Part shown: positions 1-42,243 of the stretch, in pieces
Position numbering within the stretch: position 1 is the stretch's first letter
How the letters are laid out: every line of letters starts with the position of its first letter
Source: Desulfobacteraceae bacterium
Lineage (GTDB): Bacteria; Desulfobacterota; Desulfobacteria; Desulfobacterales; SURF-7
Reading direction: 5' to 3'
Assembly: GCA_030618465.1 (NCBI GenBank)
Contig: JAUXDD010000002.1
Coordinates: 1-42,655, forward strand
DNA length: 42,655 nt
Notes under the pieces: model-generated
The model's input: only the letters and a program-made list of their open reading frames with translations
What the model was told of the DNA's origin: nothing
Databases searched by the model: none
Made by a program: the position numbers and the translations under genes

Positions 1-590
1 CCCCTGTTTTCCATTACCAAGTGCCCATTGGCGGAATCGTATTTTCCCCCGGTCAAAATTTCTTTTTCAATGTCAAATTTTGAAGCTGCGGCCCAGTTTA
101 AAAATTTACCCTTTGCGGCAAAATAAATAATACTTGGCGGCGTCGGCGGCGGCGGCGTGTCAACACTAAGAAAAACAGCTGTATCTCCAAACGCTGCAGC
201 ACTCTTGTATGTTGCACTACCATATGCTGTCAAAGCAATGCCGGAATCAATCGATACAAATTTTTCCGAACCTGAATTATAATAATACCAGGTATCCGGG
301 TCAAAATAACCGGCATAGCCAGATGTTGCACTAAAACTATCGTCGTAACAGTCAGTACTGGAATCCGTATACGCCAGGTCAAACATACTGGCGGAGTTAT
401 CTATGATCAGCAGAAGGTTTGGATATATGTCCGCCGAGCTGATAAAGGGCGGATTGGATTCATACATGCTCGCCGTATACGTAGGATGGGACCCTGCCGC
501 CATTAAGGAGGAGACAGACATGTTGGACACCAGCCCCAAAATAGAAACCATGCAGCATATAATGATTATCTGAGCATTCTTTTTAACCAT
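1..590 (-). CDS. PilY1-like type IV pilus tip-associated protein, N-terminal vWA part (partial; continues beyond window start)
   Basis: The minus-strand frame is open to the window edge, so it is absent from the ORF track. ATG at 588-590 is preceded by a GAGGTG SD. Hand translation gives MVKKNAQIIIICCMVSILGLVSNMSVSS (signal peptide) followed by PNLLLIIDNSASMFD, a vWA MIDAS DxSxS motif. It lies directly after the PilX-like gene, as in fimU-pilVWXY1 operons. Confidence 0.6.
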   Translation of the reverse strand, partial: MVKKNAQIIIICCMVSILGLVSNMSVSSLMAAGSHPTYTASMYESNPPFISSADIYPNLLLIIDNSASMFDLAYTDSSTDCYDDSFSATSGYAGYFDPDTWYYYNSGSEKFVSIDSGIALTAYGSATYKSAAAFGDTAVFLSVDTPPPPTPPSIIYFAAKGKFLNWAAASKFDIEKEILTGGKYDSANGHLVMENR

Positions 591-723
591 TTTTCTCACC
601 TCATAATAAATTCGAGTTTAACATTTATTAATTGAATTACGTGTTATTTCTGTGTCAATTCCTTTCCTTTATTTCATATTTACAACCATGTAAAAATCTT
701 CCAAAGCACTCTCCTATTCGGAT

Positions 724-1410
724 TTAGTATATACATTCACTCTCCTGGCCAATCAGGTGTAGCCAGTCAAGCCCCACTTCAGACTGCATGGTACTTTTTC
801 CCATTCGGCCTTCACGGAGTGAATATATTTCAAAACTTATCACTGCACCACCGCCGGCTGAGCCCTTTCCCTTGCCCTCATACCCGGCTGCCATCTGAAT
901 GGCACCGCCCGGTGCTAACGCAGCATTTCCACCCATTTTCACATAGGTGGTAACGTCGGCGCTTGAACTTCTTGGAAAATAAAAATCGTAGACTCCGTCA
1001 TGCACGGAACTGCTGCTGTCTGATGACGGTCTCAGCTCATACGCATCATCAAGATCATTCGGATTTTTCCAGAATGCAAGGTCTGAAAAATCTCCTGTTT
1101 TTGCCTGGGCCATTATCATTAAGTCACCGATTTCCACGTAAGCATAATCATCGTTCCCGGTTCCGCCGGCAGCAGTAAACCCCCCCGGACAGTTGATATT
1201 TTGTTCAAGGATTTCAATACCCACATTTGATCCGGCCTCTGCATTATAAAAGGCTTTTTTTTGAAAATTGTCATTTGCCGATATCTGGGTTTCCAACATG
1301 CTGTTTCGTATTGTCAATGTACCAATTATTGTCAGAAGCACCAGCAGCAGGATAACGACCACTATCAAGGAACCGTCTTCATTATTCATAATGTTAGAAT
1401 ATTTTTTCAT
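724..1410 (-). CDS. PilX-like type IV pilus minor component (PilX_N-type N-terminal helix)
   Basis: The N-terminus DGSLIVVVILLLVLLTIIGTLTIRNSMLETQISANDNFQKKAFYNAEAG matches the PilX_N pattern (hydrophobic helix then A-F/Y-x-AEAG). It occupies the fourth position in the minor-pilin operon. Confidence 0.65.
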   Translation of the reverse strand: MKKYSNIMNNEDGSLIVVVILLLVLLTIIGTLTIRNSMLETQISANDNFQKKAFYNAEAGSNVGIEILEQNINCPGGFTAAGGTGNDDYAYVEIGDLMIMAQAKTGDFSDLAFWKNPNDLDDAYELRPSSDSSSSVHDGVYDFYFPRSSSADVTTYVKMGGNAALAPGGAIQMAAGYEGKGKGSAGGGAVISFEIYSLREGRMGKSTMQSEVGLDWLHLIGQESECIY

Positions 1411-1425
1411 AATATGACCTCATAC

Positions 1426-1893
1426 CTATATTATGTCTGCTTTTGCAGACTGTAACTTTACCGTTTTCCCGCCTTGCCTTAAATACCTGACGTTGACCGT
1501 TATGGTTTTTGTATGATTCACCGGCGTATCATCCTGAATATTCCAGGTGACATCATAAATCCCATCTCTCACAACCGCAACTGCCGGATGTGAACCGGCT
1601 ACCAGGAATTGTTCATCCGCTTCATCAATTGAACCGTCACTGTCGTTATCAAGGCCGTCATTATTCGCATTATACGGCAGGGCCATCAGCTGCTCCATCT
1701 GAACTGCCCCCCACGAAGCTCCTTCTGTCTGGGTTCTGGCACGGGTGCTGTAGTCACTGGAAGAAAAATGAAGGGCGGCTACGCCTAAAATACCCACTGA
1801 AAATATAGCCATGGCAATTAATACTTCAATGAGTGTAAAACCCCGATTATTCATTTCTTTTCTATCCACGGTATTGGATGTTTTCCTTTTCAT
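1426..1893 (-). CDS. PilV-like minor pilin (prepilin-type N-terminal cleavage/methylation domain)
   Basis: NNRG|FTLIEVLIAMAIFSVGILGV is a class III signal peptide with Glu at +5. Size is 155 aa. The true start may be the internal Met just before NNRG. Confidence 0.7.
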   Translation of the reverse strand: MKRKTSNTVDRKEMNNRGFTLIEVLIAMAIFSVGILGVAALHFSSSDYSTRARTQTEGASWGAVQMEQLMALPYNANNDGLDNDSDGSIDEADEQFLVAGSHPAVAVVRDGIYDVTWNIQDDTPVNHTKTITVNVRYLRQGGKTVKLQSAKADII

Positions 1894-1912
1894 GTTTGGC
1901 TCCCTTTAAAAA

Positions 1913-2674
1913 TTATAGCCCCAGATTGCGGCACCTGATTTCCGACGTCAGAATCATTCGACGAAAATTGTCATTTGGAGTGGCCAGGATTGTCGATCCC
2001 TGAAGGTTTGAATAGGAATTCGTATCCTTATAATCCAGAACATTTCCGCCGGTCCGTGCGATAATTGACAGCTGCACCGTTGTAATATCCTCCCTGGCCG
2101 CGGAATCTAACGGATCAAGTACATTGCCGGAGATGTCAAGATAGACAAAATTCATTACATCAATTTTATCTGCAAGGGTCCGCCAGCCATGTGGATTGAC
2201 GCCGTCATCCACATAGGCCTGTAACACATTTGTATTATCGTAGTTGGGTGAAGCAGCCAGCCTGAAGGCAACCTGCTCATCCGTATTGGCATCTACAGCG
2301 CCCGCCTCATCCAGCTCATCATAATTACCATCCGTGTCATTATCCAGGTCGTCTGCTGCTGACATATCTATTGTAAAAGCAATATTACCGGCATCCGTGG
2401 TCCCCCCATAATCATAATCCGGCAGACTGCTCACAAATCCAAAGTCACCGGAATCCGAAGGATCAAATCCTGCCATTCGGATGCCTTTCTCCATGTAGTA
2501 CATGGCCGCCCTCAGGTTCTGTTGAATCTCAACAATCTGCTGCTGAGTCCGGAAAGATTTTTGCTGTGACCGCTGGGCAGCAAATATGGACACCATGATG
2601 ATCAGTGCAATAGCCATGGCAACAAGAAGCTCTGGAAGCGAAAACCCTCTGTTATTAGTAATTACATTCCGCAT
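1913..2674 (-). CDS. PilW-like minor pilin (prepilin-type N-terminal domain)
   Basis: MRNVITNNRG|FSLPELLVAMAIALIIMVSIF carries the G|FxxxE motif. Size (253 aa) and operon position are typical of PilW/GspJ-like minor pilins. Confidence 0.7.
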   Translation of the reverse strand: MRNVITNNRGFSLPELLVAMAIALIIMVSIFAAQRSQQKSFRTQQQIVEIQQNLRAAMYYMEKGIRMAGFDPSDSGDFGFVSSLPDYDYGGTTDAGNIAFTIDMSAADDLDNDTDGNYDELDEAGAVDANTDEQVAFRLAASPNYDNTNVLQAYVDDGVNPHGWRTLADKIDVMNFVYLDISGNVLDPLDSAAREDITTVQLSIIARTGGNVLDYKDTNSYSNLQGSTILATPNDNFRRMILTSEIRCRNLGL

Positions 2675-2692
2675 TGCTTTCTCCCCGTAATT

Positions 2693-3235
2693 TTACAGTA
2701 TTTTAATATTTCCCGTGGGACTGATCTGAATCCGTTTCGTCCTGTTATGACTGTCTTTCAGATAAACCGACCCCCTTCCCATAAAAAGTCTGGCACCTAC
2801 AATTTCTTTTGGAAGGCCGTTTGGCATAAATGTAATGGATCTTCCTGCCAGGCTGTAGTCAGGATCACCCACTGAAAAACTGTCGTCATATTCAACATTG
2901 TAATCAGCCAGAGAAACACTCCTGACCACTTCTTCACCACTGTCATATGACAGGTTGGGAGGGTCTGTATCTGAATCTAAGTATACGAGAAAACTGTTAG
3001 CAGAGTTATCAAAGGTTATGGAACAATAGGCCCCTGTTTTAATTGCCTTCATCCTTGCATGCTGTAAAAAGGAAAAGATATCTCTGGTGGACTTGCTGAA
3101 TTGGGCTTTTGCTCGCCAGGTCATAATTCCAGGCGTAGCCACAAGACTGAGTATTCCAATAATCGCAAGGACAACAATAAGCTCAATAAAAGTAAATCCC
3201 TTCTCTTTTTCATCAATGAAAGATTTTTTATTCAC
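2693..3235 (-). CDS. FimT/FimU/GspH-like minor pilin
   Basis: KEKG|FTFIELIVVLAIIGILSLV is followed by a FLQHARMKAIKTG helix typical of GspH/FimT. The track ORF extends to a TTG at 3310. A GTG at 3233-3235 with a GGGGG SD 5 nt upstream gives a normal 13-aa leader, so 3235 is the preferred start. Confidence 0.65.
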   Translation of the reverse strand: MNKKSFIDEKEKGFTFIELIVVLAIIGILSLVATPGIMTWRAKAQFSKSTRDIFSFLQHARMKAIKTGAYCSITFDNSANSFLVYLDSDTDPPNLSYDSGEEVVRSVSLADYNVEYDDSFSVGDPDYSLAGRSITFMPNGLPKEIVGARLFMGRGSVYLKDSHNRTKRIQISPTGNIKIL

Positions 3236-3536
3236 GATACCCCCTTTAACATTGGTCCGGATATTCGGATCATGAAATAGTGAATTATTTTTCCAGACTT
3301 TCTCATTCAATTTATATGCCAGACATGATTTCCTATTCTGCTGCAGGTTTTATCGCAGAATCAACTTAATTCATATGCACTTGATTTATTTATTTTTTTA
3401 TCAGTTCGCTGGGGTGACATTCCATTTCAAATGATTTCTTTTTTAAAAAATCCCTTGAAAGGAATTATAAAAAAATTTAAGCGGACTATTAATTTTTTTT
3501 ATAATGAATTCGGGTATATTGAAAAATAGTATCTAT

Positions 3537-14491: not shown

Positions 14492-15222
14492 TTGCTTTTC
14501 TCCTTTGCCCGCATCAGATCCCTTTCAACTATATTTAAAAAATCTGCGGAAAAGCTATTGAGTTCAGATTCAATAACCCTGATTTTCTGTGTAAAATAGT
14601 TGAACGCCATCACAGCCGGTATGGCCACAGCCAGGCCGGCAGCCGTTGCAACCAGTGCTTCTGAAATACCCGGGGCCACAACCGCCAGAGAGGCCGATCC
14701 CCTTTGCCCGATACCGTGAAAAGAATTCATGATTCCCCAAACGGTTCCAAACAGCCCGATAAACGGTGCCGTATTTCCCGTTGTAGCAAGAAAGGGCACC
14801 ATCTGGGTCAGCCTGGTAATTTCCGTATTGATCGCCCGGCGCAAGGCCCGCTTAACATTATCTGTGCCGGCAAACATGGAACTCAAAGATGCCATATCCG
14901 CCTCTGGAGGTGATTGCGATGCAACCGGCGCACCGGAACGGCTCAACTTTTTCAGTTCCATATAACCAATGCGGAAAACCCTGGCAACCGGACTGGAACG
15001 AAGTACTTTTGCCTTTGCAAAGGCATCTGAAAAATCCCGGCTCTTCCAGAAATAATCAATAAACATGGAGGATTCACTGAACGACTTTTTTATATAGCGG
15101 TATTTGATCAGTATTATTGCCCATGAAGAAACAGAAAAAAAAAGAAGGAGAAGAAGAACAAACTGGACCATGAGCCCTGCATTCAGGAACATCTGCACCA
15201 GATCAATCTTAGCGGGAACCAT
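14488..15222 (-). CDS. tolQ: TolQ/ExbB (MotA family proton channel)
   Basis: 244 aa with three TM segments. The TAPFIGLFGTVWGIMNSF motif is typical of the MotA/TolQ/ExbB family. Confidence 0.85.
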   Translation of the reverse strand: MVPAKIDLVQMFLNAGLMVQFVLLLLLFFSVSSWAIILIKYRYIKKSFSESSMFIDYFWKSRDFSDAFAKAKVLRSSPVARVFRIGYMELKKLSRSGAPVASQSPPEADMASLSSMFAGTDNVKRALRRAINTEITRLTQMVPFLATTGNTAPFIGLFGTVWGIMNSFHGIGQRGSASLAVVAPGISEALVATAAGLAVAIPAVMAFNYFTQKIRVIESELNSFSADFLNIVERDLMRAKEKSK

Positions 15223-15275
15223 TCACTCACTCCGGATTATAATATTAAATTCAGAACTATATGCGGACGGTGTCT

Positions 15276-15304
15276 AAAATATCGAGTTTTTGCCTGAATG
15301 TCAA
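15276..15304 (-). promoter_or_regulatory. Candidate sigma70 promoter for the tolQ operon
   Basis: Minus strand reads TTGACA (15304-15299), a 17-nt spacer containing ggcaaaaa, then TATTTT (15281-15276). It lies about 55 nt upstream of the tolQ start. Confidence 0.45.
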
Positions 15305-15400
15305 GAAATTTGGGATACCCGAGAGAAAAATCACCCCTTTTGGGGAAATTATTCCATCCTGAATTTTGAAATATTCCTGATCAAACAAACTGTTTTCAAT

Positions 15401-15434
15401 AAAAAACCCCCATGCATTATGCATGAGGGTTTTT
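15401..15434 (-). terminator. Rho-independent terminator after groEL (possibly bidirectional)
   Basis: Stem cccccatgca (15407-15416) pairs with tgcatgaggg (15420-15429), with one mismatch. It is flanked by an A-run on plus (a T-run on minus) and a T-run on plus. Confidence 0.65.
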
Positions 15435-15484
15435 AATGGTTATAATATCACATATTTTTTAAACGTCACAGGCTGAAAGGCATC

Positions 15485-17164
<1,680 letters not shown>

Positions 17165-31986: not shown

Positions 31987-33033
31987 TTATTCTTCCGGAA
32001 TGGCAGGTGGAGCACACAAACCAGAATCCCCCCAGATGTATTTTCCGTACTTCAGGTACCCCAGAACGTTGTTCAATCGTAAATCAATATTATTTTTAAT
32101 CGGTATAATATCACCCTGGATTAAGGGTTGAAGAAACTTTGACAGTTCCATGCTTCCGCCGCCGGTTAAAATAATGCTGTCAATATCCCAGTCAGAAGAC
32201 CACAGTCTGTTTAAATCATTTGCAATCGTTTCAGCTGTCTGCTGATACACCTGATCCCGGATATTGGTAATATTGTACTCCTGCCCTTTCAATTTAATAG
32301 TACCGGTTTCAACGGCATTGTACAGCCGATACAATTCTACTGCAACACCGCATTTTTCATGAAGTTTGTTGGCAATCACACTGAAACAGTGTGAAATTCC
32401 AGTATCAATTGTACGGCTTCCACGCTCCACATATCGCAGGCTGTCAAAAATTGTAACGTCGGTTGTTCGGAATCCAATATCAACCACGCCAACCTTCTGA
32501 CTGGTCATTTCCATATTAATGATTCCCCCCTTGTCATCCATCAACAGATTAAAAAAGCTGCCCAGGGGCTGAGGCATCATGCGGACCTTGTTAATAAATA
32601 TCTTTTTTATGACTTTATTGCCACCCGGCTCATGATAAATAACTTTATGATGGCCCAGCAGGATCTTTGAAAACAACTTGTTGTTTTTTCTGTAATAACC
32701 GACTGGAAGCCCGGATACAACATTGATCGGTATCTCTTTATCTGCAAACCGCCCCACAACAGTCAGCGCCAGTATCTTAACAAAATCAGACAAAAGTTTT
32801 TCATGCTCCAGGGTAAACTGGCGCGCAGCAGACTGCTGTTCAGCAAAATCACCTACGAAATAGGAGTTGTCTTCTATTGTGACATGTAAATTGCTGGTAA
32901 AGGTGGTATTACCAAAATCCGACACAAAATTGATTTCCGATGCTTCACCCAGAATCGACTTAAACATCAGAGATTCTTTCCCATTGCTCGCTTTTGTAAA
33001 TCCGAACCCTATATCAATGCCAAGGACTTCCAT
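31987..33033 (-). CDS. ParM/StbA-like actin-family ATPase (orphan, chromosomal)
   Basis: Phosphate-1 motif LGIDIGFGFTKA, phosphate-2 motif VGVVDIGFRTTDV, and adenosine motif IILTGGGS. The preferred start is ATG 33033 with a GGAGGA SD. The track ORF starts at 33045. Confidence 0.7.
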   Translation of the reverse strand: MEVLGIDIGFGFTKASNGKESLMFKSILGEASEINFVSDFGNTTFTSNLHVTIEDNSYFVGDFAEQQSAARQFTLEHEKLLSDFVKILALTVVGRFADKEIPINVVSGLPVGYYRKNNKLFSKILLGHHKVIYHEPGGNKVIKKIFINKVRMMPQPLGSFFNLLMDDKGGIINMEMTSQKVGVVDIGFRTTDVTIFDSLRYVERGSRTIDTGISHCFSVIANKLHEKCGVAVELYRLYNAVETGTIKLKGQEYNITNIRDQVYQQTAETIANDLNRLWSSDWDIDSIILTGGGSMELSKFLQPLIQGDIIPIKNNIDLRLNNVLGYLKYGKYIWGDSGLCAPPAIPEE

Positions 33034-33158
33034 TTCATCCTCCATTACACGTAAGCGTATTAATTTTCAATTTCCTGTATGTTTTGTAATGCTGCGGCAC
33101 ATTCCTTAATTTTATTATCATTGGCTGGGAAGACTGTGCTCTTTTCTCCTAAAACAAA

Positions 33159-33174
33159 AGCAAATAATATGCCA
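33159..33174 (-). promoter_or_regulatory. Candidate sigma54 (-24/-12) promoter upstream of the ParM-like gene
   Basis: Minus strand reads TGGCAT-ATTAT-TTGCT, against the consensus TGGCAC-N5-TTGCW. The GG and GC are at the correct spacing. It lies about 115-140 nt upstream of the start codon. Confidence 0.45.
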
Positions 33175-33760
33175 CGCCATATACAGTATTATTTTCATCA
33201 ACACCAAACCCTGTCAGTGCCTTGATAAAATGCATTGAAAAGTATCCTTATCATAAAAGCGCAGCTTCGCAAGCAATAAATTATGTCAGATATACATAAT
33301 TTTCCCTGTTTATGCCAATTTTTTGGCTCCGGTAGCGTCAATTTAATTACGGATTACCAATACATTTAAACAATCCGTTTACAATAAGTATAAAAATTTC
33401 CTTTTTCACTCTCTCACAACAATTCCCATGCAAACAGCCCTTCACCAGGACTGAATGGAGTCAAATGTATGATTCCTGCTGTACATAGGCTGATGTTTTT
33501 TAAAAAAATATTTTAACGCCTTGATTTTTGTGTGTTTTTTATGGTAATAATATATATTAGTTGTTGCCATTTCATTTGACGCTTCCCACAGCCCGATAAA
33601 TGAAAACAATAAATATGCCTTAAAAATTTCAAAAAAAGAGGATTAAAGCCGGTCAAAATATGATATATGATAGATCAGGAATCTTGATGTCCATATCAAA
33701 TAACAGCAGGATTCGTTGAATGTTTGTTCTGTTTGCTCATAAATAAAGGCTAAATAGCTC

Positions 33761-34495
33761 ATGAAAAACGTTTTGATCGTAGATGATGACTCAGCAACAC
33801 GCGCTTTGCTTTCCCGGGTGCTGAAAGTTCACGCCGATGAATTTGATATCCTTACCGCAAAAAACGGCAGGGAAGCATCTGACATCATCAGTTCCAATAA
33901 AATCAATCTTATTATAACAGATATCCAGATGCCTGAGCTGGATGGGTTTGGCCTTATCACTCATGTTGCCAATAATTATCCGGAAATCCCGGTTCTAGTC
34001 ATGACGGCTCATGCAACATCTGACGTTAAAGCCAAACTGAAAACCCATCACTCACCAAAACTGTTTGAAAAGCCCCTGAATATGGATATTCTTACGGAGG
34101 CCATTTCTGAAGAGCTGGATGCCGGTGCTGAAGGCAAAATAAGGGGTATCAGCCTTGCTTCTTTTCTGCAGCTCATCGAGATGGAGAAAAAAACGTGTAC
34201 TTTAAAAATTTCATGCAAAGGTCAATCCGGTAATATGTACTTTCAAAAGGGTGAAATGTTTGATGCTAAAATGGGGGATCTGAAAAAGGAAGAAGCTGCG
34301 TATGAATTAATCTGCTGGGACAAAATTGAAATCGATATAAAAGATGTCTGTAAAAAGCAGCAAAAGGTAATCAACCAGCCTTTAATGAATCTCCTGATGG
34401 AAGCCCTTAAAATAAAAGATGAAAGAGAAGCAAAGGAAAACGTCAGGCGGGCACCGCTAAAACCGTTAAAAAACCTCACCCTCAAAAAAGCCTGA
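33761..34495 (+). CDS. Response regulator: receiver domain + PATAN/DUF4388 domain
   Basis: The receiver domain shows VLIVDDD, LIITDIQMPELDG and FEKP. The C-terminal half (GISLASFLQLIEMEKKTCTLKISCKGQSGNMYFQKGEMFDAKMGDLKKEEAAYELICW) matches the DUF4388/PATAN pattern. Confidence 0.75.
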   Translation: MKNVLIVDDDSATRALLSRVLKVHADEFDILTAKNGREASDIISSNKINLIITDIQMPELDGFGLITHVANNYPEIPVLVMTAHATSDVKAKLKTHHSPKLFEKPLNMDILTEAISEELDAGAEGKIRGISLASFLQLIEMEKKTCTLKISCKGQSGNMYFQKGEMFDAKMGDLKKEEAAYELICWDKIEIDIKDVCKKQQKVINQPLMNLLMEALKIKDEREAKENVRRAPLKPLKNLTLKKA

Positions 34496-34588: not shown

Positions 34589-37500
34589 CTATTCCGCCTG
34601 AACCCCGGCCAGGAATCCTCCAGCAGCGCCGATTTCTTTCACCTGCAAACCGAAATCGTCAAAATAGACTGCTTCCGAGTTCTCCGAATCAATACCAAAT
34701 GTATGCAGCCCCACTTCGGAAGGGGTTGAAGCGCCGGGATCATCATAAATCTCAGAAGTAAGCTGGTTACTGAAAAGAGCGGTGCTGTTAATCGCCCTCT
34801 CACAGATCCTTTTTGTGGCTATTGAAGTGGAGCCGCCGATTGTTACATGAAAGGCGGAATTATTTTTGCTGTTATAGTCTGACCAGACAACCGGGGTAAA
34901 CGGAAATGATTCATCTTCCGGCCATTTCAGTGTGTCCCCGCGGCCGTAAACATCTGGACCGGCAAACCATGCTTTTATGATGTTGTACCGTTCATCGCTT
35001 GAATTTCCGCAGTCTCCGGCAAGAGTTTCATCGAAGAAATCGTCTTTTTCTTCCATAATTCTTGCCATGAGGGTGACCCATTCTTTGAGATAGATAATAT
35101 AGTTCATGGATTTCTGAGTATCCACATCCTGACCGGGAAACACATAGGCGTCAGTAGAAACCGACAGTGTTGTTGTACCGCTGTCATAGTGATAAACTAT
35201 GGCATCAGCAGGCTTACCGGTATCAAACGTATAATCCACGCCACTATATGACAGGGTCTGGGATTCAACAATGCCAGGATAAACGGTTGTCAGTTTTTTT
35301 GCGGCAACGATTTCAGGCATCCTTGGGTCACCGGTTATTATGGCATCACACCATATATCGGATTCGGCAAAAATCATCACTCGTCCGTCTTTTTTTGAAC
35401 CCGGGGGAACGTTGTATTGCGTACCCGGGACGGGATCGGAAAAACTGAATATGTCCCGATACTGCTGGGAACCGGTAGTTGATGTTTTAAACTTTACAAT
35501 ATCACCCAGGATAGTCTCTGTCCAGATTCCCAGATAATCGCCGGATTGACAGGTAAGATTCAACCCATCCCAGGTTTGAATCCCTGTTGTATCAGAGGCT
35601 ACCAATCGTTGGGAATCGCGAACGGTAAAATCATTTCCACTTTTACTGGCAGTAAAAATATAAAAAGAACCGCCGCCTTGATCTATATAGGCCTTAAACC
35701 GTGTTATCGTTCCATCGGTAGTTGCCGGTTCACTCTCGTCAATAAAAATATGATGGTTATTAAAACCACCGGTATTACCCAGATATGGCTCACCGCTTTG
35801 TAATTCTTCACCGCCACCCAGGGTATAACTCCCCGATGGATAGTGATACAATGCCACATCCTCATCGCCGCAAAGCGGCATATACGCCAGCCAGTCAGTC
35901 AGCAGTTCCTCATAGTTTCTGATCCACACAGGATTGTAGGCACTGTTATATTCGTCCAGGTCATCGGCCTTCTGCCAGAGCAGGATATAGGGCACACCGC
36001 TGATCATAGGACTGCCGTCCCAGCCCGCTGATTTACCGGCCGGGTTGTTTACACACATATAATTCAGGTCTGCAGACGAAGCAGGATCTTCAAAAAGAAA
36101 ATCATCCGGGATATCGTCAGGATCAGGATTTGCGCCCAGAGCATTGTTGTCAAAAAGGGGCCTTACAAAAGAGAGTCCGTAATATTCCCTCAGGTCTGAA
36201 TATCCTTCATTCGGTGTACGAACACGAAACAAAAAACCCGGCATATACGTCCCCAGAGGATTACCGGTATCGCTGTCTTCCTCAGCAGTAAATTTGATTT
36301 TTACCTGAAGATCATAGTATAAGCGATCATTGAAATCACTTCTAAGATCCTCCATTGTCTTTTTTTCCCCTGACTCATTCGTAAACTCGAGATCCTGCTT
36401 GAGTTCCAGAAAACTCTCCTGGACATCTTTTCCAGCATATGCTGTGGCAATCGTAGAGCCGCCAACATCCGTTCCCCCCTGTGCGGTTGATACCTGAATC
36501 GCTGCGTCTCCATTAATCGATGTAAGGGTATGCCCCCCCAAAGCTGTCCCCGTATTCCAGTTATCAAGATTATCAAAGGAATCATCCAGCTTATAATTTA
36601 TTACCATGTTTCCTGTGATCAGGGGCAGATTTATTTTCAGGGACCGGGTAGCCTGGTATGCGCCCGTACCGGCAGTGCCGGTTGAAGTAATTAATACGTT
36701 TTTGTTTAATATAAATGTCAAACTGCTTGCCGATACGGTATTATCTTCCAGTGCATATAACGTTGACGATGCATTTCTCACATTGGTAAGAGTGGATGTT
36801 TCAGAATCAACCCTGTCATAAATCAGCAGATAATGATTCGTGCCGTCTGTTACGGTTATCACTCCGTTTAATTTCGGGAAAACACTGAAAGTTCCCGCGT
36901 CAAGGGGTGTTGTTGAACCATTTGACGCAACAATTTGCAAATTATTGTCCGGCTGGATGACCCTGACGTTTCCTGGTGTACTCGAAGCATAAAATGAGGG
37001 ATAAACAGAGGTTCCGGCAGAAATGGCAACGGGTACAGCTATTGATAAATTCAATGTCCATTGCCCAGGCGACGGCTGGTCCCTGTCTATGCTGTCAACA
37101 GGAATATGGATGGGATAACCGTCAATAGCGATTGTTCCGGCAGTAATGTGAGCGTATGCGTCCGGAAATTCATAAGGGGCCCGCACAATCAGTCTGCTGA
37201 AACTGGCAGCATGGTCACCGACCGTTTCAAACCAGTATGAATCAATACCGATGCTGAAACTGTTCTCAGGTGTCAGTTGACAGGTAGTTCCGGCAAGTGT
37301 TTTTAATGCGTCAAAATCGCCGCCTTCCTTCCCGGTAAATGTGTATCCGGCGTATCTGTAGCCTGACTCGGCATTATAATAGGCACGGGTATTTAATAAA
37401 GGTGTTATCGAGCCTGATGTTGACGTGTTCAAAAGTGTTATCACACCTGCGCCAACCACAGAAACCACCACCATGGTAGCAATCACACCGATGAGAACGC

Positions 37501-38242
37501 TGCCCTGCTGGCAGTTGATCATGATCGTTGTGCTGGTTTTTGAAGGAAATAAAATCAGCTGACGTCTTCCTGCCATATACCACAGCAATATCAGGGATAA
37601 AAATATTACAGACACACCCGCACATGAATAATTTTCAGTACCGAAAGCTGCGGCAGTTATAAAACAGGGTGATGTCCCGGGATTTATCCCGGGTGTACCG
37701 GAGACCAGATTAGCAATATCTTCAGGTTGATACAGGTTTCTGGGAACCACCTGTGCCGAAAACGGCACGGACGTTCCTTCTGCCATGGTCATTGAAAAAG
37801 CAATATCTATTCGCGCCAGATCTGAATTAGGGGATGCGGTCCAGGGTGTGGTGCCGTCATTTTTCCAATATGAAAAAGAAAAATCGGAAACATCCTCGGC
37901 CAATATATATGTGTTACCGCCAACAGTTATTTCCAGGGTGTTGCTGCTGTAACTGTACTGCTCGGTTTCCTGGCTGCCGTCCCGGTCAAACGTAACCGCT
38001 ATCGACGTTGATATGGGTTCCGAAGCTATGGAATTTATATCAGTAATATTTCTGAATGTCCGGGTCATCCGGCCCATGGCCATTTGCCCTTTTTGTGAAA
38101 CGTCTGAAACTCCTCTGGCATAAACCAGTGCCCTGGTCCCTCTTAATAGGCCAAAACCTGCTACTGCGGCAAGTATGCCAACCAGTATAAGCGAAGCAAT
38201 GATTTCAACAAGCGTAAATCCTTTATTATTCATTCCCTTCAT
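34589..38242 (-). CDS. Giant (1217 aa) prepilin-headed protein: PilW/GspJ-like module + internal anchor-like segment + PilX_N-like helix + large lectin-like region
   Basis: The N-terminus MKGMNNKG|FTLVEIIASLILVGILAAVAG is a class III signal with E+5. Residues 193-227 read CFITAAAFGTENYSCAGVSVIFLSLILLWYMAGRR. Residues 245-298 read QQGSVLIGVIATMVVVSVVGAG...AYYNAESG (PilX_N-like). The rest has no recognised enzymatic motif, but it shows FDNLDNW ... GFLFRV ... YYGLSF ... VYFDDFGLQV, which resembles a LamG/ConA-like jelly roll. Confidence 0.75.
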   Translation of the reverse strand: MKGMNNKGFTLVEIIASLILVGILAAVAGFGLLRGTRALVYARGVSDVSQKGQMAMGRMTRTFRNITDINSIASEPISTSIAVTFDRDGSQETEQYSYSSNTLEITVGGNTYILAEDVSDFSFSYWKNDGTTPWTASPNSDLARIDIAFSMTMAEGTSVPFSAQVVPRNLYQPEDIANLVSGTPGINPGTSPCFITAAAFGTENYSCAGVSVIFLSLILLWYMAGRRQLILFPSKTSTTIMINCQQGSVLIGVIATMVVVSVVGAGVITLLNTSTSGSITPLLNTRAYYNAESGYRYAGYTFTGKEGGDFDALKTLAGTTCQLTPENSFSIGIDSYWFETVGDHAASFSRLIVRAPYEFPDAYAHITAGTIAIDGYPIHIPVDSIDRDQPSPGQWTLNLSIAVPVAISAGTSVYPSFYASSTPGNVRVIQPDNNLQIVASNGSTTPLDAGTFSVFPKLNGVITVTDGTNHYLLIYDRVDSETSTLTNVRNASSTLYALEDNTVSASSLTFILNKNVLITSTGTAGTGAYQATRSLKINLPLITGNMVINYKLDDSFDNLDNWNTGTALGGHTLTSINGDAAIQVSTAQGGTDVGGSTIATAYAGKDVQESFLELKQDLEFTNESGEKKTMEDLRSDFNDRLYYDLQVKIKFTAEEDSDTGNPLGTYMPGFLFRVRTPNEGYSDLREYYGLSFVRPLFDNNALGANPDPDDIPDDFLFEDPASSADLNYMCVNNPAGKSAGWDGSPMISGVPYILLWQKADDLDEYNSAYNPVWIRNYEELLTDWLAYMPLCGDEDVALYHYPSGSYTLGGGEELQSGEPYLGNTGGFNNHHIFIDESEPATTDGTITRFKAYIDQGGGSFYIFTASKSGNDFTVRDSQRLVASDTTGIQTWDGLNLTCQSGDYLGIWTETILGDIVKFKTSTTGSQQYRDIFSFSDPVPGTQYNVPPGSKKDGRVMIFAESDIWCDAIITGDPRMPEIVAAKKLTTVYPGIVESQTLSYSGVDYTFDTGKPADAIVYHYDSGTTTLSVSTDAYVFPGQDVDTQKSMNYIIYLKEWVTLMARIMEEKDDFFDETLAGDCGNSSDERYNIIKAWFAGPDVYGRGDTLKWPEDESFPFTPVVWSDYNSKNNSAFHVTIGGSTSIATKRICERAINSTALFSNQLTSEIYDDPGASTPSEVGLHTFGIDSENSEAVYFDDFGLQVKEIGAAGGFLAGVQAE

Positions 38243-38253
38243 TGTTTTACCCT

Positions 38254-38718
38254 TTAGAAACTGATACCACCCCTGTCATAAAATAAGGATGTTAATGTGA
38301 TCCCTGTTGACGAATCCGTAAGTGTAAGCCTCATGATCGGGCCATTTACAGAAGGTGAGCTCAATACCCCGCTGCTGAATGAGGCATATCGCTTCATATC
38401 ATCTGCCGTGTTGATAAAATCAGCGTAGTTCGCGTTTATAAATATGGAAAGTTTATTTAATACATGGATTTCAGTCGGATTATAAAGCAGGTTAAAATAA
38501 TACAGATTAATATTTTCCATAACCAGTTCCATGGCATATGTCCGCTGTATTGCCTCAATGGGTTGCGAACTTCTTTGCAGGGCAGAGCCTGTAATGGTTA
38601 CCAGCATTGTGCCCAAAATGGCTGCAACAATCAGTGAAACAATAATTTCCAGCAAGGTAAACCCCTGCTCACTTTTTACCAGCATTTTATATGTTTGATC
38701 AGGCAGTGTTGTTTTCAT
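38254..38718 (-). CDS. Prepilin-type N-terminal domain protein (minor pilin/pseudopilin-like)
   Basis: SEQG|FTLLEIIVSLIVAAILGTMLV. 154 aa, with a 4-nt ATGA overlap with the upstream gene. Confidence 0.7.
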   Translation of the reverse strand: MKTTLPDQTYKMLVKSEQGFTLLEIIVSLIVAAILGTMLVTITGSALQRSSQPIEAIQRTYAMELVMENINLYYFNLLYNPTEIHVLNKLSIFINANYADFINTADDMKRYASFSSGVLSSPSVNGPIMRLTLTDSSTGITLTSLFYDRGGISF

Positions 38719-39170
38719 GGAATATACCCTGTATTGGGAGTTATGAGGATGTCATCCCTGTTGCCGACCTTATATGTATTATTTATCACCGTATTGTTAT
38801 TTACCCCGGTATAGGGCCGCCCCCATGTATCAAAAGAGATATACCCGGCAGCGGTTATACCGTCCGGCATATTCACATTGACTGTATCTTCACCCGGGAG
38901 AGTAAAATCCTGTTGAGCACCGTCAAACTTATACAGTTTGTATGTTGAACTCTGAAACTCAATACCCCACACGGAACCTGTGTTCATTGCCATGGACTGA
39001 GCATGGCGCATATGTGATTTCAGTATGGCAATCCGGATCAACTGATTACTCTGGTTTGTCGTATCAACTACCCTGACAGCTACCACCGCAGAGACAATCC
39101 CTATTAAGATCAATACCACAACAATCTCAATAAGGGTAAAACCGCGATTATTTTTTATGATATTAGTCAC
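38715..39170 (-). CDS. GspH/FimT-like minor pilin/pseudopilin
   Basis: MTNIIKNNRG|FTLIEIVVVLILIGIVSAV, then a LKSHMRHAQSMAM helix, with FDTWGRP and ITPNTGYI near the C-terminus. 151 aa. Confidence 0.7.
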   Translation of the reverse strand: MTNIIKNNRGFTLIEIVVVLILIGIVSAVVAVRVVDTTNQSNQLIRIAILKSHMRHAQSMAMNTGSVWGIEFQSSTYKLYKFDGAQQDFTLPGEDTVNVNMPDGITAAGYISFDTWGRPYTGVNNNTVINNTYKVGNRDDILITPNTGYIP

Positions 39171-40559: not shown

Positions 40560-40949
40560 GCTGGTTACTTTTAAATTATTAAAATTATGCCCTTGTTAAA
40601 CACCCAGTTTTTTCCGTCCCTTATCCGGCAGAGTAAAGTTATGATATGACCTGAAACAGATTATAAGGCAAATATTTTTTTATTTATTGACAAAACATAA
40701 TTTTATTTTATAAACATTGTTATTATTTAATTTTTATTTTGTATTATTTTACTGCTGGCAGACAGCAACTGTGAAAAGTTTGTAATATTAATATACGCTC
40801 TTTTTCACAATTTTTTATTTTAGTGCCGCCAGGATAACTATTTGTTCTTTTTGATATTTCTTCTATGCGATGAACAGGTATGATTCTTGCTTTCTGATTA
40901 CTTAATTATTAAAGGGTTCCAAAATTACGTCAAGTATGGAGGTGTGAAA

Positions 40950-41639
40950 GTGAAACAATTAATCAGACAGTTTCTGATATTTGGAATTGCGCTTTTTGTG
41001 TTATGTGCATTCACGCCGTCAAACAGTTTTGCCGGTGTGAATGTCTTTGCAGAAGGAGCGTATACGGCGACTGACCTCGTTGTTTATATCTATGCAGACA
41101 TTGATGGTGGTACCGTGTTGAGGAGTGCGGGCGTCAAACTGATGTATCCGGCCGCAGAGCTGAATGTAACCAGCGCAGAAAAAAATGAAACTGCCTGGTT
41201 TTTGGGCAGCGAGTCGTACATGGACCCGGACACGGGCACGGCCGGTGAAGTGATTTTTATCCTGGGCAAACTTGACACTGCGGCACCCGCAGAAGGTGTG
41301 AGTGGAACCAGGGTTTTGCTGGGAAAAGTCACTTTTGATCGCACGGACAGCACCATGCCGTATGCGCCTGTATTGAGTATGGTTCTGGGTAAATCAGGCG
41401 ATTTCGCCAACTTTGTTGATACAGCAACTCCTGCTGTTGTGATGGATGGGAGTGTGACTTTTGGTACGATGACGGTGAGGGAACGCGGTGATGCTAATGG
41501 GGATGGGAATATCAATTCCGTTGATTATGTTGCCTTACGAAATAATCTGGGCACGACGTATTTTCCACCCTATATGGACTGTAACGACGATGGATCGATT
41601 AACTCAGTGGATTATGTGTGTGTGAGAAATAAGCTTTAA
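40950..41639 (+). CDS. Secreted protein with cohesin-like beta-sandwich and C-terminal type I dockerin
   Basis: A GTG start follows a GGAGGTG SD. The signal peptide is KQLIRQFLIFGIALFVLCAFTPSNSFA. The C-terminus (41487-41636) carries two EF-hand-like dockerin repeats, DANGDGNINSVDYVALRNNL and DCNDDGSINSVDYVCVRNKL. The central region is beta-rich with cohesin-like patterns (weaker evidence). Confidence 0.6.
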   Translation: MKQLIRQFLIFGIALFVLCAFTPSNSFAGVNVFAEGAYTATDLVVYIYADIDGGTVLRSAGVKLMYPAAELNVTSAEKNETAWFLGSESYMDPDTGTAGEVIFILGKLDTAAPAEGVSGTRVLLGKVTFDRTDSTMPYAPVLSMVLGKSGDFANFVDTATPAVVMDGSVTFGTMTVRERGDANGDGNINSVDYVALRNNLGTTYFPPYMDCNDDGSINSVDYVCVRNKL

Positions 41640-41772: not shown

Positions 41773-42243
41773 ATGATAGACAAATCAATTATTTTTATTT
41801 CTTTTGTTTTATGTTGTTTGTTTGTTCAGCCAGTGTACGCAGACACTATTGTTAGTTTTGACCTGGATGGGCTGGATGTTGCATCTTTCGAGTTTGCCGT
41901 AGTGGACGAAGATTACGCTGTTGCCGATTTCACTACCAGTTTGCCTGATGGGTGGATGGACATGTCTTCAGAAGATACTTTCGCTTCACTTGACATGGGG
42001 GGTAGCAACTCACTGACATCAGGTGATATCGGACTTTTCACTGCTGACGGCGTCATATTAGGTAACTTTGTTCTTGGGAATCAGGCTGCTGAGACTCTTG
42101 TTCAAAATTCAGATTACTGGGTTCATGAGATAACCGGCGCTTACCTGGTATCTGCATCAGAGACAATTCCCATCCCCGGAGCATTCTGGCTTCTCGGTTC
42201 TGCTCTGATCGGGCTTGTGGGAGTTAAGAGAAAATTTAATTAA
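41773..42243 (+). CDS. Small secreted protein with PEP-CTERM/VPLPA-CTERM-type sorting signal
   Basis: Strong SD GGAGAGGGGGAG. The signal peptide ends in VYA. The C-terminus IPIPGAFWLLGSALIGLVGVKRKFN is a Pro-rich motif followed by a TM helix and a basic tail. Confidence 0.6.
   Translation: MIDKSIIFISFVLCCLFVQPVYADTIVSFDLDGLDVASFEFAVVDEDYAVADFTTSLPDGWMDMSSEDTFASLDMGGSNSLTSGDIGLFTADGVILGNFVLGNQAAETLVQNSDYWVHEITGAYLVSASETIPIPGAFWLLGSALIGLVGVKRKFN

What the first reader, a model, noticed from the sequence alone, without database searches (positions are those of the whole stretch)
37349..37666. In-frame junction inside the giant ORF: C-terminal-anchor-like CFI box + TM + RR followed by a second, PilX_N-type membrane helix
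Residues 193-227 read CFITAAAFGTENYSCAGVSVIFLSLILLWYMAGRR, that is a Cys-Phe-Ile motif, a hydrophobic helix and a basic stop-transfer. This looks like the C-terminal end of a protein. From memory it resembles CFIATAAYG-type C-terminal anchor/sorting boxes, but I cannot verify that. About 17 residues later a new PilX_N-like start appears: QQGSVLIGVIATMVVVSVVGAG...AYYNAESG. Compare KAFYNAEAG in the PilX-like gene at 724-1410. The ORF therefore looks like two ancestral genes (J-like and K-like) joined with no stop codon. The internal Met at 37520-37522 has no SD upstream (ttccttcaaaaaccagcacaacgatc ATG), so independent initiation is not obviously supported. A pilin with two further membrane segments is topologically odd. 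It may imply proteolytic separation or a novel anchoring mode.
Basis: partly seen in the sequence, partly recalled or inferred. Interest (0 to 1): 0.65.

Follow-up and report, generated by a model that had tools for sequence, protein, structure and literature searches.

The report
Two pilus-tip pilins fused by anchor
One real, conserved 1217-residue gene of a cold-seep sulfate-reducer relative joins two neighbouring pilus-tip subunits through a membrane-anchor cassette that normally ends proteins. The cell probably has to cut the product back into two pilins with its pilin-processing peptidase, a use of that enzyme I found described nowhere.

Summary
It is not an assembly artefact: four independent metagenome assemblies carry the junction without indels, and its variants are mostly synonymous. 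The ORF (34589-38242, minus strand) has three parts:
- a GspJ/PilW-like minor pilin;
- a shortened CFI-box C-terminal anchor (invariant Cys193, a transmembrane helix, then RR);
- a GspK/PilX-type second pilin helix with a giant domain.

About 93 of the 150 best 50%-identity cluster representatives have the same fused layout. The NCBIfam CFI-box-CTERM model (NF041770) matches the junction at E <= 0.001 in 49 of those 93. Split intermediates exist. In one, the stop codon of the J+anchor gene is followed directly, in frame, by the ATG of the K gene.

The topology is coherent rather than odd: TM1 in-to-out, TM2 out-to-in with a positively charged cytoplasmic loop, TM3 in-to-out. The Gly just before the second pilin helix is invariant in 121 of 121 fused and split relatives. 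A loop Met is present in only 26 of 93, so internal initiation is not the general solution.

Most likely the protein is a three-TM precursor that prepilin peptidase cuts twice. That cleavage is inferred, not shown. Verdict: new variant of a known kind, interest about 0.62.

The parts
34589..38242 (-). Single 1217-aa ORF, a J-anchor-K fusion precursor (stop codon included)
   Evidence: Intact in four independent assemblies and in the 99% variant P0002.
38219..38242 (-). First prepilin leader, MKGMNNKG (residues 1-8). Predicted cleavage is G8|F9.
   Evidence: Pfam N_methyl 23.7 bits and TIGR02532 22.4 bits over residues 4-28.
38135..38218 (-). TM1: class III signal / pilin alpha1-N helix, FTLVEIIASLILVGILAAVAGFGL...
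   Evidence: The AF2 model has a helix at 11-64.
37733..38134 (-). GspJ/PilW-like globular pilin domain (residues about 37-170), ending in the conserved PRN motif
   Evidence: AF2 pLDDT is about 90 here. The ten best Foldseek PDB hits are all GspJ homologues: EpsJ (2ret, 3cfi) and XcpW (5bw0), probability 1.0, TM-score normalised to the target 0.50-0.57.
37667..37732 (-). Pro/Gly/Ser/Thr-rich linker (residues 171-192)
   Evidence: Low pLDDT over 177-208. Variable in alignment A1.
37640..37666 (-). CFI box, CFITAAAFG (residues 193-201). Cys193 is invariant.
   Evidence: C invariant in 93/93 and F in at least 90%. The homologous position in 49/93 relatives is the start of an NF041770 domain match.
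37568..37624 (-). TM2, CAGVSVIFLSLILLWYMAG (residues 207-225). Predicted orientation is out-to-in.
   Evidence: Hydropathy 2.04. AF2 helix at 208-227. The variants at C207, V212 and A224 are synonymous.
37502..37567 (-). Basic cytoplasmic loop, RRQLILFPSKTSTTIMINCQQG (residues 226-247). It doubles as the leader of the second pilin and contains M241 (37520-37522).
   Evidence: In relatives the loop has a median length of 16 aa and is net positive in 88/93. No SD precedes M241.
37499..37504 (-). Predicted second prepilin-peptidase site, G247|S248
   Evidence: G invariant in 121/121, K/R at -2 in 73/121, G/A/S instead of Glu at +5. The window's own PilX_N protein has the same 'G|SLIV' pattern.
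37361..37501 (-). TM3: PilX_N-type pilin helix through the AYYNAESG motif (residues 248-294)
   Evidence: hhalign against the window protein 724-1410 gives 90.7% probability, E 1.2e-6. PF14341 hits 7/93 relatives directly. AF2 helix at 248-304.
34592..37360 (-). Giant beta-rich K-like periplasmic/extracellular region (residues 295-1217). Conserved N-terminal and C-terminal domains flank a poorly modelled middle part.
   Evidence: AF2 model of residues 241-1217 has pLDDT 77, but model residues 569-713 fall below 50. No Pfam, NCBIfam or PDB relative was found. The C-terminal 240 aa are 44% identical to the G032 homologue.
38254..38718 (-). Upstream small prepilin (154 aa), in the GspI/PilV position
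   Evidence: N_methyl 25.8 bits. Conserved directly upstream of J-K in G032, G022, G035 and L120.
38715..39170 (-). First gene of the module: GspH-like prepilin (151 aa)
   Evidence: TIGR01708 gspH, E 3e-13, 50 bits, below the cut-off of 80. Synteny is conserved.

Best explanation
The ORF is a natural fusion of the last two genes of a four-pilin tip (priming) module ordered H-like, I-like, J-like, K-like. The J-like minor pilin had first acquired a CFI-box-type C-terminal membrane anchor (motif, TM helix, basic tail). Loss of its stop codon then joined it in frame to the leader of the downstream K/PilX-like giant pilin.

The product inserts as a three-TM precursor:
- leader 1 sits in the cytoplasm;
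- TM1 runs in-to-out;
- the J domain and CFI box are periplasmic;
- TM2 runs out-to-in;
- a positively charged loop lies in the cytoplasm;
- TM3 runs in-to-out;
- the giant K domain is periplasmic or extracellular.

The genome's prepilin peptidase then most likely cuts at both G8|F9 and G247|S248. That would regenerate the same two products as the split gene pairs: a J pilin that still carries its C-terminal anchor, and a free K pilin, in fixed 1:1 stoichiometry and side by side.

Shown: the sequence, its conservation, its evolutionary origin, the coherence of the topology, and the invariance of the site. Inferred: the cleavage itself and the fate of the anchored J.
For: The ORF is real and under purifying selection.

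The J part has a GspJ fold. The K helix is PilX_N-like. The gene order H-like, I-like, J-K is the only conserved synteny.

The junction is an NF041770 domain in orthologues. Canonical carriers end with TM plus a basic tail.

The Cys-to-Gly(-1) distance is bimodal: 42 short forms (44-80 aa; the window is 54) and 50 long forms (100-131 aa), with visible deletion intermediates.

Split intermediates have true stops, either TAA followed by an in-frame ATG or an ATGA overlap. On the K-domain tree, well-supported branches alone force at least 8 changes of the split label, so the two states appear interchangeable.

All fused proteins have three hydrophobic segments. The loop is net positive in 88/93.

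Gly(-1) is invariant in 121/121, with K/R at -2 in 73/121.

One Peptidase_A24 gene is present in the genome (80 bits).

From my own knowledge, not verified here: GspK-family pseudopilins lack Glu5 yet are processed by prepilin peptidase (XcpX; Bleves et al. 1998).
Against: There is no protein-level evidence, and no RNA or proteomic data exist for this uncultured organism.

Prepilin peptidase is known only to cut N-terminal leaders. A 247-residue, two-TM 'leader' is unprecedented.

The window's own junction hits neither NF041770 nor PF14341 directly.

The K globular part has no recognisable GspK/PilX structural match.

After cleavage J would still be tethered by TM2, which conflicts with extrusion at a pilus tip unless there is a second processing step or a short pseudopilus.

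The role of the invariant Cys is unexplained.

Long-form CFI domains have a second, weaker hydrophobic helix. If that helix spans the membrane, the topological parity would break.
Confidence: 0.6

Rival explanations
1. The protein is never cut at the second site. It works as one three-TM inner-membrane protein that holds J-like and K-like domains together, for example as a membrane-retained priming platform or a short periplasmic pseudopilus cap that is not extruded.
For: J carries a membrane anchor even in the split forms, so membrane retention of at least J seems to be part of the design. The K helix lacks Glu5. No cleavage data exist.
Against: Gly(-1) is invariant in 121/121, and K/R at -2 is kept in fused forms just as in split ones whose leaders must be removed. 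Fused and split states interchange repeatedly, which argues that they give equivalent end products. An uncleaved cytoplasmic loop would block extraction of the two pilin helices into a filament (inference).
Confidence: 0.2
2. An unidentified sorting enzyme recognises the CFI box (motif, TM, basic tail, as in sortase- or exosortase-type signals) and cuts or transfers J at or near Cys193. Together with cleavage at G247, this would excise TM2 as a small peptide and free both pilins for assembly. This adds to the best explanation rather than excluding it.
For: Cys193 and Phe194 are (nearly) invariant even in short forms that lost the rest of the domain. That is more than a plain anchor needs. The tripartite layout resembles known C-terminal sorting signals, which is why NCBIfam names the domain CTERM. 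Release would resolve the tethering problem.
Against: No cognate enzyme is known. I found no literature on the domain. No conserved neighbour exists beyond the pilins. The own genome has no other NF041770 protein, and in G022 and G057 the pilin copy is the only one. A dedicated sorting system for a single substrate is unusual.
Confidence: 0.15
3. The K part is made separately by internal translation initiation at M241, giving an ordinary prepilin with the 7-aa leader MINCQQG. The long ORF would then yield J-anchor plus read-through as a by-product.
For: M241 lies 6 residues before Gly247 and would give a leader of typical type IVa length.
Against: There is no SD-like sequence upstream. Only 26 of 93 fused relatives have any Met in the loop. 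No stop codon is present to permit termination-reinitiation coupling. The J frame continues under purifying selection through the loop.
Confidence: 0.05
4. Sequencing or assembly error, or a recent pseudogene-like loss of a stop codon with no functional meaning.
For: The window comes from a metagenome-assembled genome. The closest family-level relatives (f1) carry split J and K genes without a CFI box.
Against: Four independent assemblies show no indel. Nine of 13 variants are synonymous. About 93 fused representatives of 50%-identity clusters share the layout, as do seven families of the order.
Confidence: 0.02

Closest known systems
GspH-I-J-K minor pseudopilins of type II secretion, and the equivalent FimU-PilV-PilW-PilX (type IVa pilus) and MshO/MshP tip or priming sets
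   Same: Same gene order: H-like, I-like, J, K. The J part has a GspJ (EpsJ/XcpW) fold. The K part has a PilX_N-type helix with Gly at -1 and no Glu5. A prepilin peptidase is present.
   Different: J and K form one polypeptide. J carries a C-terminal TM anchor. The K part has about 970 residues, with no detectable GspK alpha-domain or PilX match. No PilY1/MshQ-like gene follows, and the giant K may take that role (inference).
NCBIfam NF041770 CFI-box-CTERM domain (putative C-terminal anchoring or sorting domain, function uncharacterised)
   Same: The CF[IV]xTAAxG box has an invariant Cys, followed by a TM helix and a basic cluster. Orthologous junctions pass the model's cut-off.
   Different: Here the domain is internal, not C-terminal. 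In this window it is shortened from about 115 to 54 residues between the Cys and the next Gly(-1), and it no longer matches the model. It is the only such element in the genome.
Modular type IV pilins with grafted C-terminal modules (for example Streptococcus sanguinis PilB/PilC; PMC9934059, listed)
   Same: A pilin N-terminal module carries additional functional domains on one polypeptide.
   Different: Those have a single class III signal and one TM helix. This protein holds two complete pilin modules separated by a membrane-crossing anchor and a second peptidase-type site.

Membership tests
Type IV pilin / pseudopilin (class III signal peptide proteins) | N-terminal leader ending in Gly, followed by a hydrophobic helix with Glu5 (GFxxxE) | tested here: met
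   MKGMNNKG|FTLVEI. PF07963 scores 23.7 bits (cut-off 21.2) and TIGR02532 scores 22.4 bits (cut-off 16.3).
GspJ / PilW-type minor pilin (J part) | GspJ-like globular fold after the alpha1 helix | tested here: met
   The ten best Foldseek PDB hits are all EpsJ or XcpW, probability 1.0, TM-score normalised to the target 0.50-0.57, E 1.4e-3 to 5.5e-3. The sequence models gspJ and PilW are not hit.
GspJ / PilW-type minor pilin (J part) | Encoded between an I-like and a K-like minor pilin | tested here: met
   The order GspH-like (50 bits), small pilin, J, K is conserved in G032, G022, G035 and L120.
CFI-box-CTERM domain (NF041770) | Score at or above the curated cut-off (40 bits) against the 69-position model | tested here: not met
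   The window's junction gives no hit at E <= 10. Orthologous junctions score 82.4 and 71 bits, and the model matches 49 of 93 at E <= 0.001. The window copy is a homologous deletion derivative, not a member by the model.
CFI-box-CTERM domain (NF041770) | Located at the extreme C-terminus, followed only by a TM helix and a basic tail | tested here: not met
   Here 990 residues follow it. Canonical carriers in G018 do end '...TM-RRRCNE*', and split J+CFI proteins end after the basic tail.
CFI-box-CTERM domain (NF041770) | CF[IV]xTAAxG box with conserved Cys | tested here: met
   CFITAAAFG at residues 193-201. The Cys is invariant in 93/93.
PilX_N (PF14341) / GspK-type minor pilin (K part) | Match to the PilX_N model (helix plus the A-Y-x-AE-G motif) | tested here: inconclusive
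   There is no direct hit for the window piece. Seven of 93 relatives hit at E <= 0.01. Profile against the window's bona fide PilX_N protein gives 90.7% probability, E 1.2e-6.
PilX_N (PF14341) / GspK-type minor pilin (K part) | Gly at -1 and no Glu at +5 | tested here: met
   Gly is present in 121/121. Position +5 is G, A or S.
PilX_N (PF14341) / GspK-type minor pilin (K part) | GspK-like globular structure | tested here: not met
   No GspK or other significant PDB match was found for the K model or profile.
Prepilin peptidase substrate at the internal site | Cleavage after Gly247 by a Peptidase_A24 enzyme | not testable with these tools
   Only indirect evidence is available: the site is invariant, the loop is predicted cytoplasmic, and the enzyme gene is present.

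The most novel reading that the evidence does not exclude
Prepilin peptidase acts here as a polyprotein-processing enzyme. An internal class III signal, placed directly after a C-terminal-type CFI-box anchor, lets one translation product deliver two adjacent tip pilins at 1:1 stoichiometry. The J subunit stays leashed to the inner membrane by its C-terminal TM helix, or is released at the invariant Cys by an unknown enzyme. Either way this would be a new way of controlling or limiting the start of type IV filament assembly.
Probability: 0.45. Interest if true: 0.72.

Novelty: new variant of a known kind. Interest (0 to 1): 0.62.

Why it matters
Minor-pilin tip complexes prime every type IV filament: pili, type II secretion pseudopili and competence pili. 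They are always described as separate subunits, each with one N-terminal signal.

A widespread family in Desulfobacterota instead encodes J and K as one chain through a membrane-crossing anchor. This has three consequences:
- It predicts an internal substrate site for prepilin peptidase, which is unprecedented.
- It shows that a pilin can carry a C-terminal membrane leash, which constrains models of how tip complexes leave the membrane.
- It gives the uncharacterised CFI-box-CTERM domain a defined, experimentally tractable context with a single substrate per genome.

It also matters for annotation. These ORFs are currently named only as prepilin-type or CFI-box proteins.

Tried and rejected
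- The word-index homologue search found only the protein itself.
- The search for related loci failed with alignments A2 and A1 (no conserved stretch), and with the single protein it found no relative.
- The 'open_frame_aa' column of the genome search reads through single stops. It made genus g3, G028 and G033 look fused. Direct inspection showed ordinary split genes with TAA followed by ATG or GTG, and no CFI box.
- Direct Pfam and NCBIfam scans of the window's junction, K N-terminus and C-terminal half gave nothing.
- Foldseek and PDB profile searches of the K part gave no meaningful match. An MshQ/LamG-like reading of the C-terminal region, a lead from earlier notes, could therefore not be supported here.
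- I looked for a conserved neighbouring gene that could be a CFI-box processing enzyme and found none within +/-10 kb in four fused loci.
- A lipobox reading of the Cys was rejected. There is no upstream signal helix or L-x-x-C context (read from the sequence).
- Literature searches for CFI-box-CTERM, CFIATAAYG, fused minor pilins and prepilin peptidase polyproteins found no description.
Full report
**Observation**

The window has one uninterrupted 1217-codon ORF on the minus strand, 34589-38242.
- Residues 1-28 are a canonical prepilin signal, MKGMNNKG|FTLVEI. PF07963 scores 23.7 bits and TIGR02532 scores 22.4 bits.
- Residues 193-227 read CFITAAAFGTENYSCAGVSVIFLSLILLWYMAGRR.
- After 17 more residues comes QQGSVLIGVIATMVVVSVVGAG...RAYYNAESG.
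- The finding's coordinates, 37349-37666, are exactly residues 193-298.
- The only Met in the loop is M241 (37520-37522). The 38 bases upstream have no Shine-Dalgarno-like purine run.
- A hydropathy scan finds three hydrophobic segments: the pilin helix, residues 207-225, and residues 248-272.

**Is it an artefact?**

No.
- Contigs from four independent cold-seep metagenome runs, from different studies, cover the junction with substitutions only. No inserted or deleted letters and no joints appear.
- Of the 13 population variants between residues 169 and 299, nine are synonymous, including C207, V212 and A224 inside the middle helix. The four replacements are conservative, and none creates a stop.
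- A 99%-identical 1217-aa variant, P0002, carries ten substitutions in the same frame.

**What the parts are**

*J part.* An AlphaFold2 model of residues 1-620, built on 64 homologues, has mean pLDDT 78.9. It shows a long helix at 11-64 plus a beta-sheet at pLDDT about 90. The junction (177-245) has low confidence, with a helix at 208-227. A second long helix at 248-304 leads into a beta-rich domain. The ten best Foldseek PDB matches are all GspJ homologues: EpsJ in 2ret and 3cfi, and XcpW in 5bw0. Probability is 1.0 and the TM-score normalised to the target is 0.50-0.57, although the E-values are only 1.4e-3 to 5.5e-3.

*Upstream genes.* The two upstream genes are small prepilins. The first is GspH-like (TIGR01708, 50 bits, E 3e-13, below the cut-off). 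The module therefore has the order H-like, I-like, J, K. This three-gene unit is the only synteny shared with fused loci of G032, G022 and G035 and with a split locus, L120. The G043 locus shares only the J-K gene.

*Second helix.* It does not hit PF14341 directly. Seven of 93 relatives do. A profile of the family aligns to the window's own bona fide PilX_N protein (724-1410; PF14341 42 bits) with 90.7% probability and E 1.2e-6, from the leader through AYYNAESG.

*K globular region.* The model of residues 241-1217 has pLDDT 77. No relative was found in Pfam, NCBIfam or the PDB.

**The junction is a C-terminal anchor cassette**

- A search of 60 related genomes found single-frame fused ORFs in seven different families of the same order: G000, G032, G022, G043, G035, G038 and G057.
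- The junctions of G057 and G022 score 82.4 and 71 bits against NCBIfam NF041770, CFI_box_CTERM, whose cut-off is 40.
- An exhaustive HMMER search of 1.84 billion cluster representatives gave 587 hits. Of the best 150, about 93 are fused.
- All 93 keep the Cys. NF041770 matches 49 of them at E <= 0.001.
- The distance from the Cys to the Gly before the second helix is bimodal. There are 42 short forms (44-80 aa; the window is 54) and 50 long forms (100-131 aa, mode 114-115). Partially deleted intermediates are visible.
- The window copy is therefore a deletion-shortened derivative. It keeps only the box, the TM helix and the basic residues, which explains why it no longer matches the model.
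- Canonical NF041770 proteins in G018 end with the domain, one clear TM helix and a basic tail ('...LICFRRRCNE*'). The cassette is thus a genuine protein end.

**Origin by stop-codon loss**

Split intermediates exist with real stop codons.
- In L120 the J-like gene ends '...ALAFVTRRCK' with TAA. The next codon, in the same frame, is the ATG of the K gene ('MKTIILNHKG|SMLISL...').
- In L119 a J gene with a full CFI domain ends '...VVRRKRGTAR*' and overlaps the K start as ATGA ('MKKRIGRSSRG|FMLVG...').
- Other relatives, including all sampled members of the window's own family, have plain J and K genes without any CFI box.
- On a tree of the K domain, the fused and split states are clustered but interchange. 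Well-supported branches alone force at least 8 changes of the split label. Some 'split' representatives may be truncated gene calls, so that number is approximate.

**Topology and mechanism**

- TM1 is a class III signal running in-to-out, which places the J domain and CFI box in the periplasm.
- TM2 returns the chain to the cytoplasm.
- The loop after TM2 has a median length of 16 residues and is net positive in 88 of 93 relatives. This fits the positive-inside rule.
- TM3 can then insert N-in/C-out like any pilin helix.
- The Gly immediately before TM3 is invariant in 121 of 121 fused and split K N-termini. K/R occupies -2 in 73 of them, and G/A/S replaces Glu at +5. The window's own PilX_N protein shows the same 'G|SLIV' pattern.
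- The genome encodes one Peptidase_A24 prepilin peptidase (80 bits).
- Only 26 of 93 relatives have a Met in the loop, so internal initiation cannot be the general way to make K.

The most economical reading is a three-TM precursor cut at G8|F9 and G247|S248. That gives the same products as the split gene pairs. The cleavage is an inference from conservation and topology, and nothing here shows it directly.

**Open points**

- After cleavage, J would still be held by TM2, as it is in the split J+CFI forms. That is hard to reconcile with extrusion at a pilus tip.
- The Cys and Phe of the box stay (nearly) invariant even where the rest of the domain is deleted. This suggests a recognition or chemistry role beyond anchoring.
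- No candidate enzyme is linked to the locus.
- The genome has no other NF041770 protein. In G022 and G057 the pilin copy is the only one.
- The domain itself is common in the phylum. In an even sample of 401 genomes, 166 matched the junction profile, mostly over its CFI-box part, and at least eight had full-span CFI-to-K hits.
- Long-form domains have a second, weaker hydrophobic helix whose membrane status I could not settle.

**Context**

By GroEL the organism is a Desulfobacterales MAG (87-88% identity to Desulfobacteraceae/Desulfobacterales MAGs), and it comes from cold-seep sediments. It has five PilB/GspE-like and two PilT-like ATPases, so the cognate machine is not identified. The same window also holds a conventional, unfused minor-pilin cluster (about 3-3310) with its own PilX_N gene.

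**Comparison with what is known**

The protein works like the GspH-I-J-K, FimU-PilV-W-X or MshO-P tip sets. It differs in three ways: the covalent J-K link, the C-terminal-type anchor on J, and the very large K. It is not a member of NF041770 by that model's own criteria, neither by score nor by C-terminal position, although it is homologous to members.

Full-text searches found nothing on CFI-box-CTERM, on the box sequence, on fused minor pilins, or on prepilin peptidase processing polyproteins.

Earlier notes of this scan describe the same architecture in other genomes, with the same reading. I treated them as leads only, and the tests above were made independently.

**Verdict**

This is a new variant of a known kind, and this window holds one (short-form) member of a widespread, undescribed family.

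Noticed in passing
window 3-3310 (minus strand): The same window holds a second, conventional minor-pilin cluster. It has a 205-aa prepilin (2693-3310), a PilW-like protein (1913-2674; PF16074 17.7 bits, weak), a 155-aa prepilin (1426-1893), a PilX_N protein (724-1410; 42 bits) and a following large ORF cut by the window end (3-599). The genome therefore has both an unfused and a fused tip set.
   Followed up: partly
window 41773-42243 (+): A 156-aa protein ends ...ETIPIPGAFWLLGSALIGLVGVKRKFN, a PEP-CTERM/VPLPA-CTERM-like sorting signal (TIGR03370 20.3 bits, below the cut-off of 25.35). This suggests an exosortase-type system in the genome.
   Followed up: partly
window 40887-41639 (+): A 250-aa secreted-looking protein has a C-terminal dockerin type I domain (PF00404, 41.8 bits). 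That is unusual next to pilus genes in a Desulfobacterales MAG.
   Followed up: no
window 31987-34495: An actin-like ALP_N/MreB-like protein (31987-33045, 130 bits) and a response regulator with DUF4388 (33761-34495) lie directly downstream of the giant pilin gene. They are not conserved next to fused loci elsewhere.
   Followed up: partly
L014 (G046:C147) 689-1438: A J-like gene ends '...GCFIGILRQGGPTP*', just after a CFI box with no TM helix. The K gene starts separately in another frame. It looks like a secondarily split and decayed descendant of a fused or anchored form.
   Followed up: no
G018 (L033-L036); phylum sample: Canonical CFI-box-CTERM domains are common in the phylum. The junction profile, mostly its CFI-box part, matched 166 of 401 sampled genomes, with several copies in some. 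The carriers are otherwise unrelated secreted proteins of 130-1500 aa. The domain appears uncharacterised in the literature I could search.
   Followed up: partly
Genome search output: The 'open_frame_aa' column joins frames across single stop codons. J and K genes separated by TAA+ATG in the same frame (genus g3, G028) appear as one frame of about 1075-1200 aa. This can mislead fused-versus-split counts.
   Followed up: yes
G000 contig C268: The genome's single Peptidase_A24 gene (2631-2954) lies on the same contig as one of five PilB/GspE-like ATPase genes (14600-15784). That machine is a candidate partner for the module.
   Followed up: no
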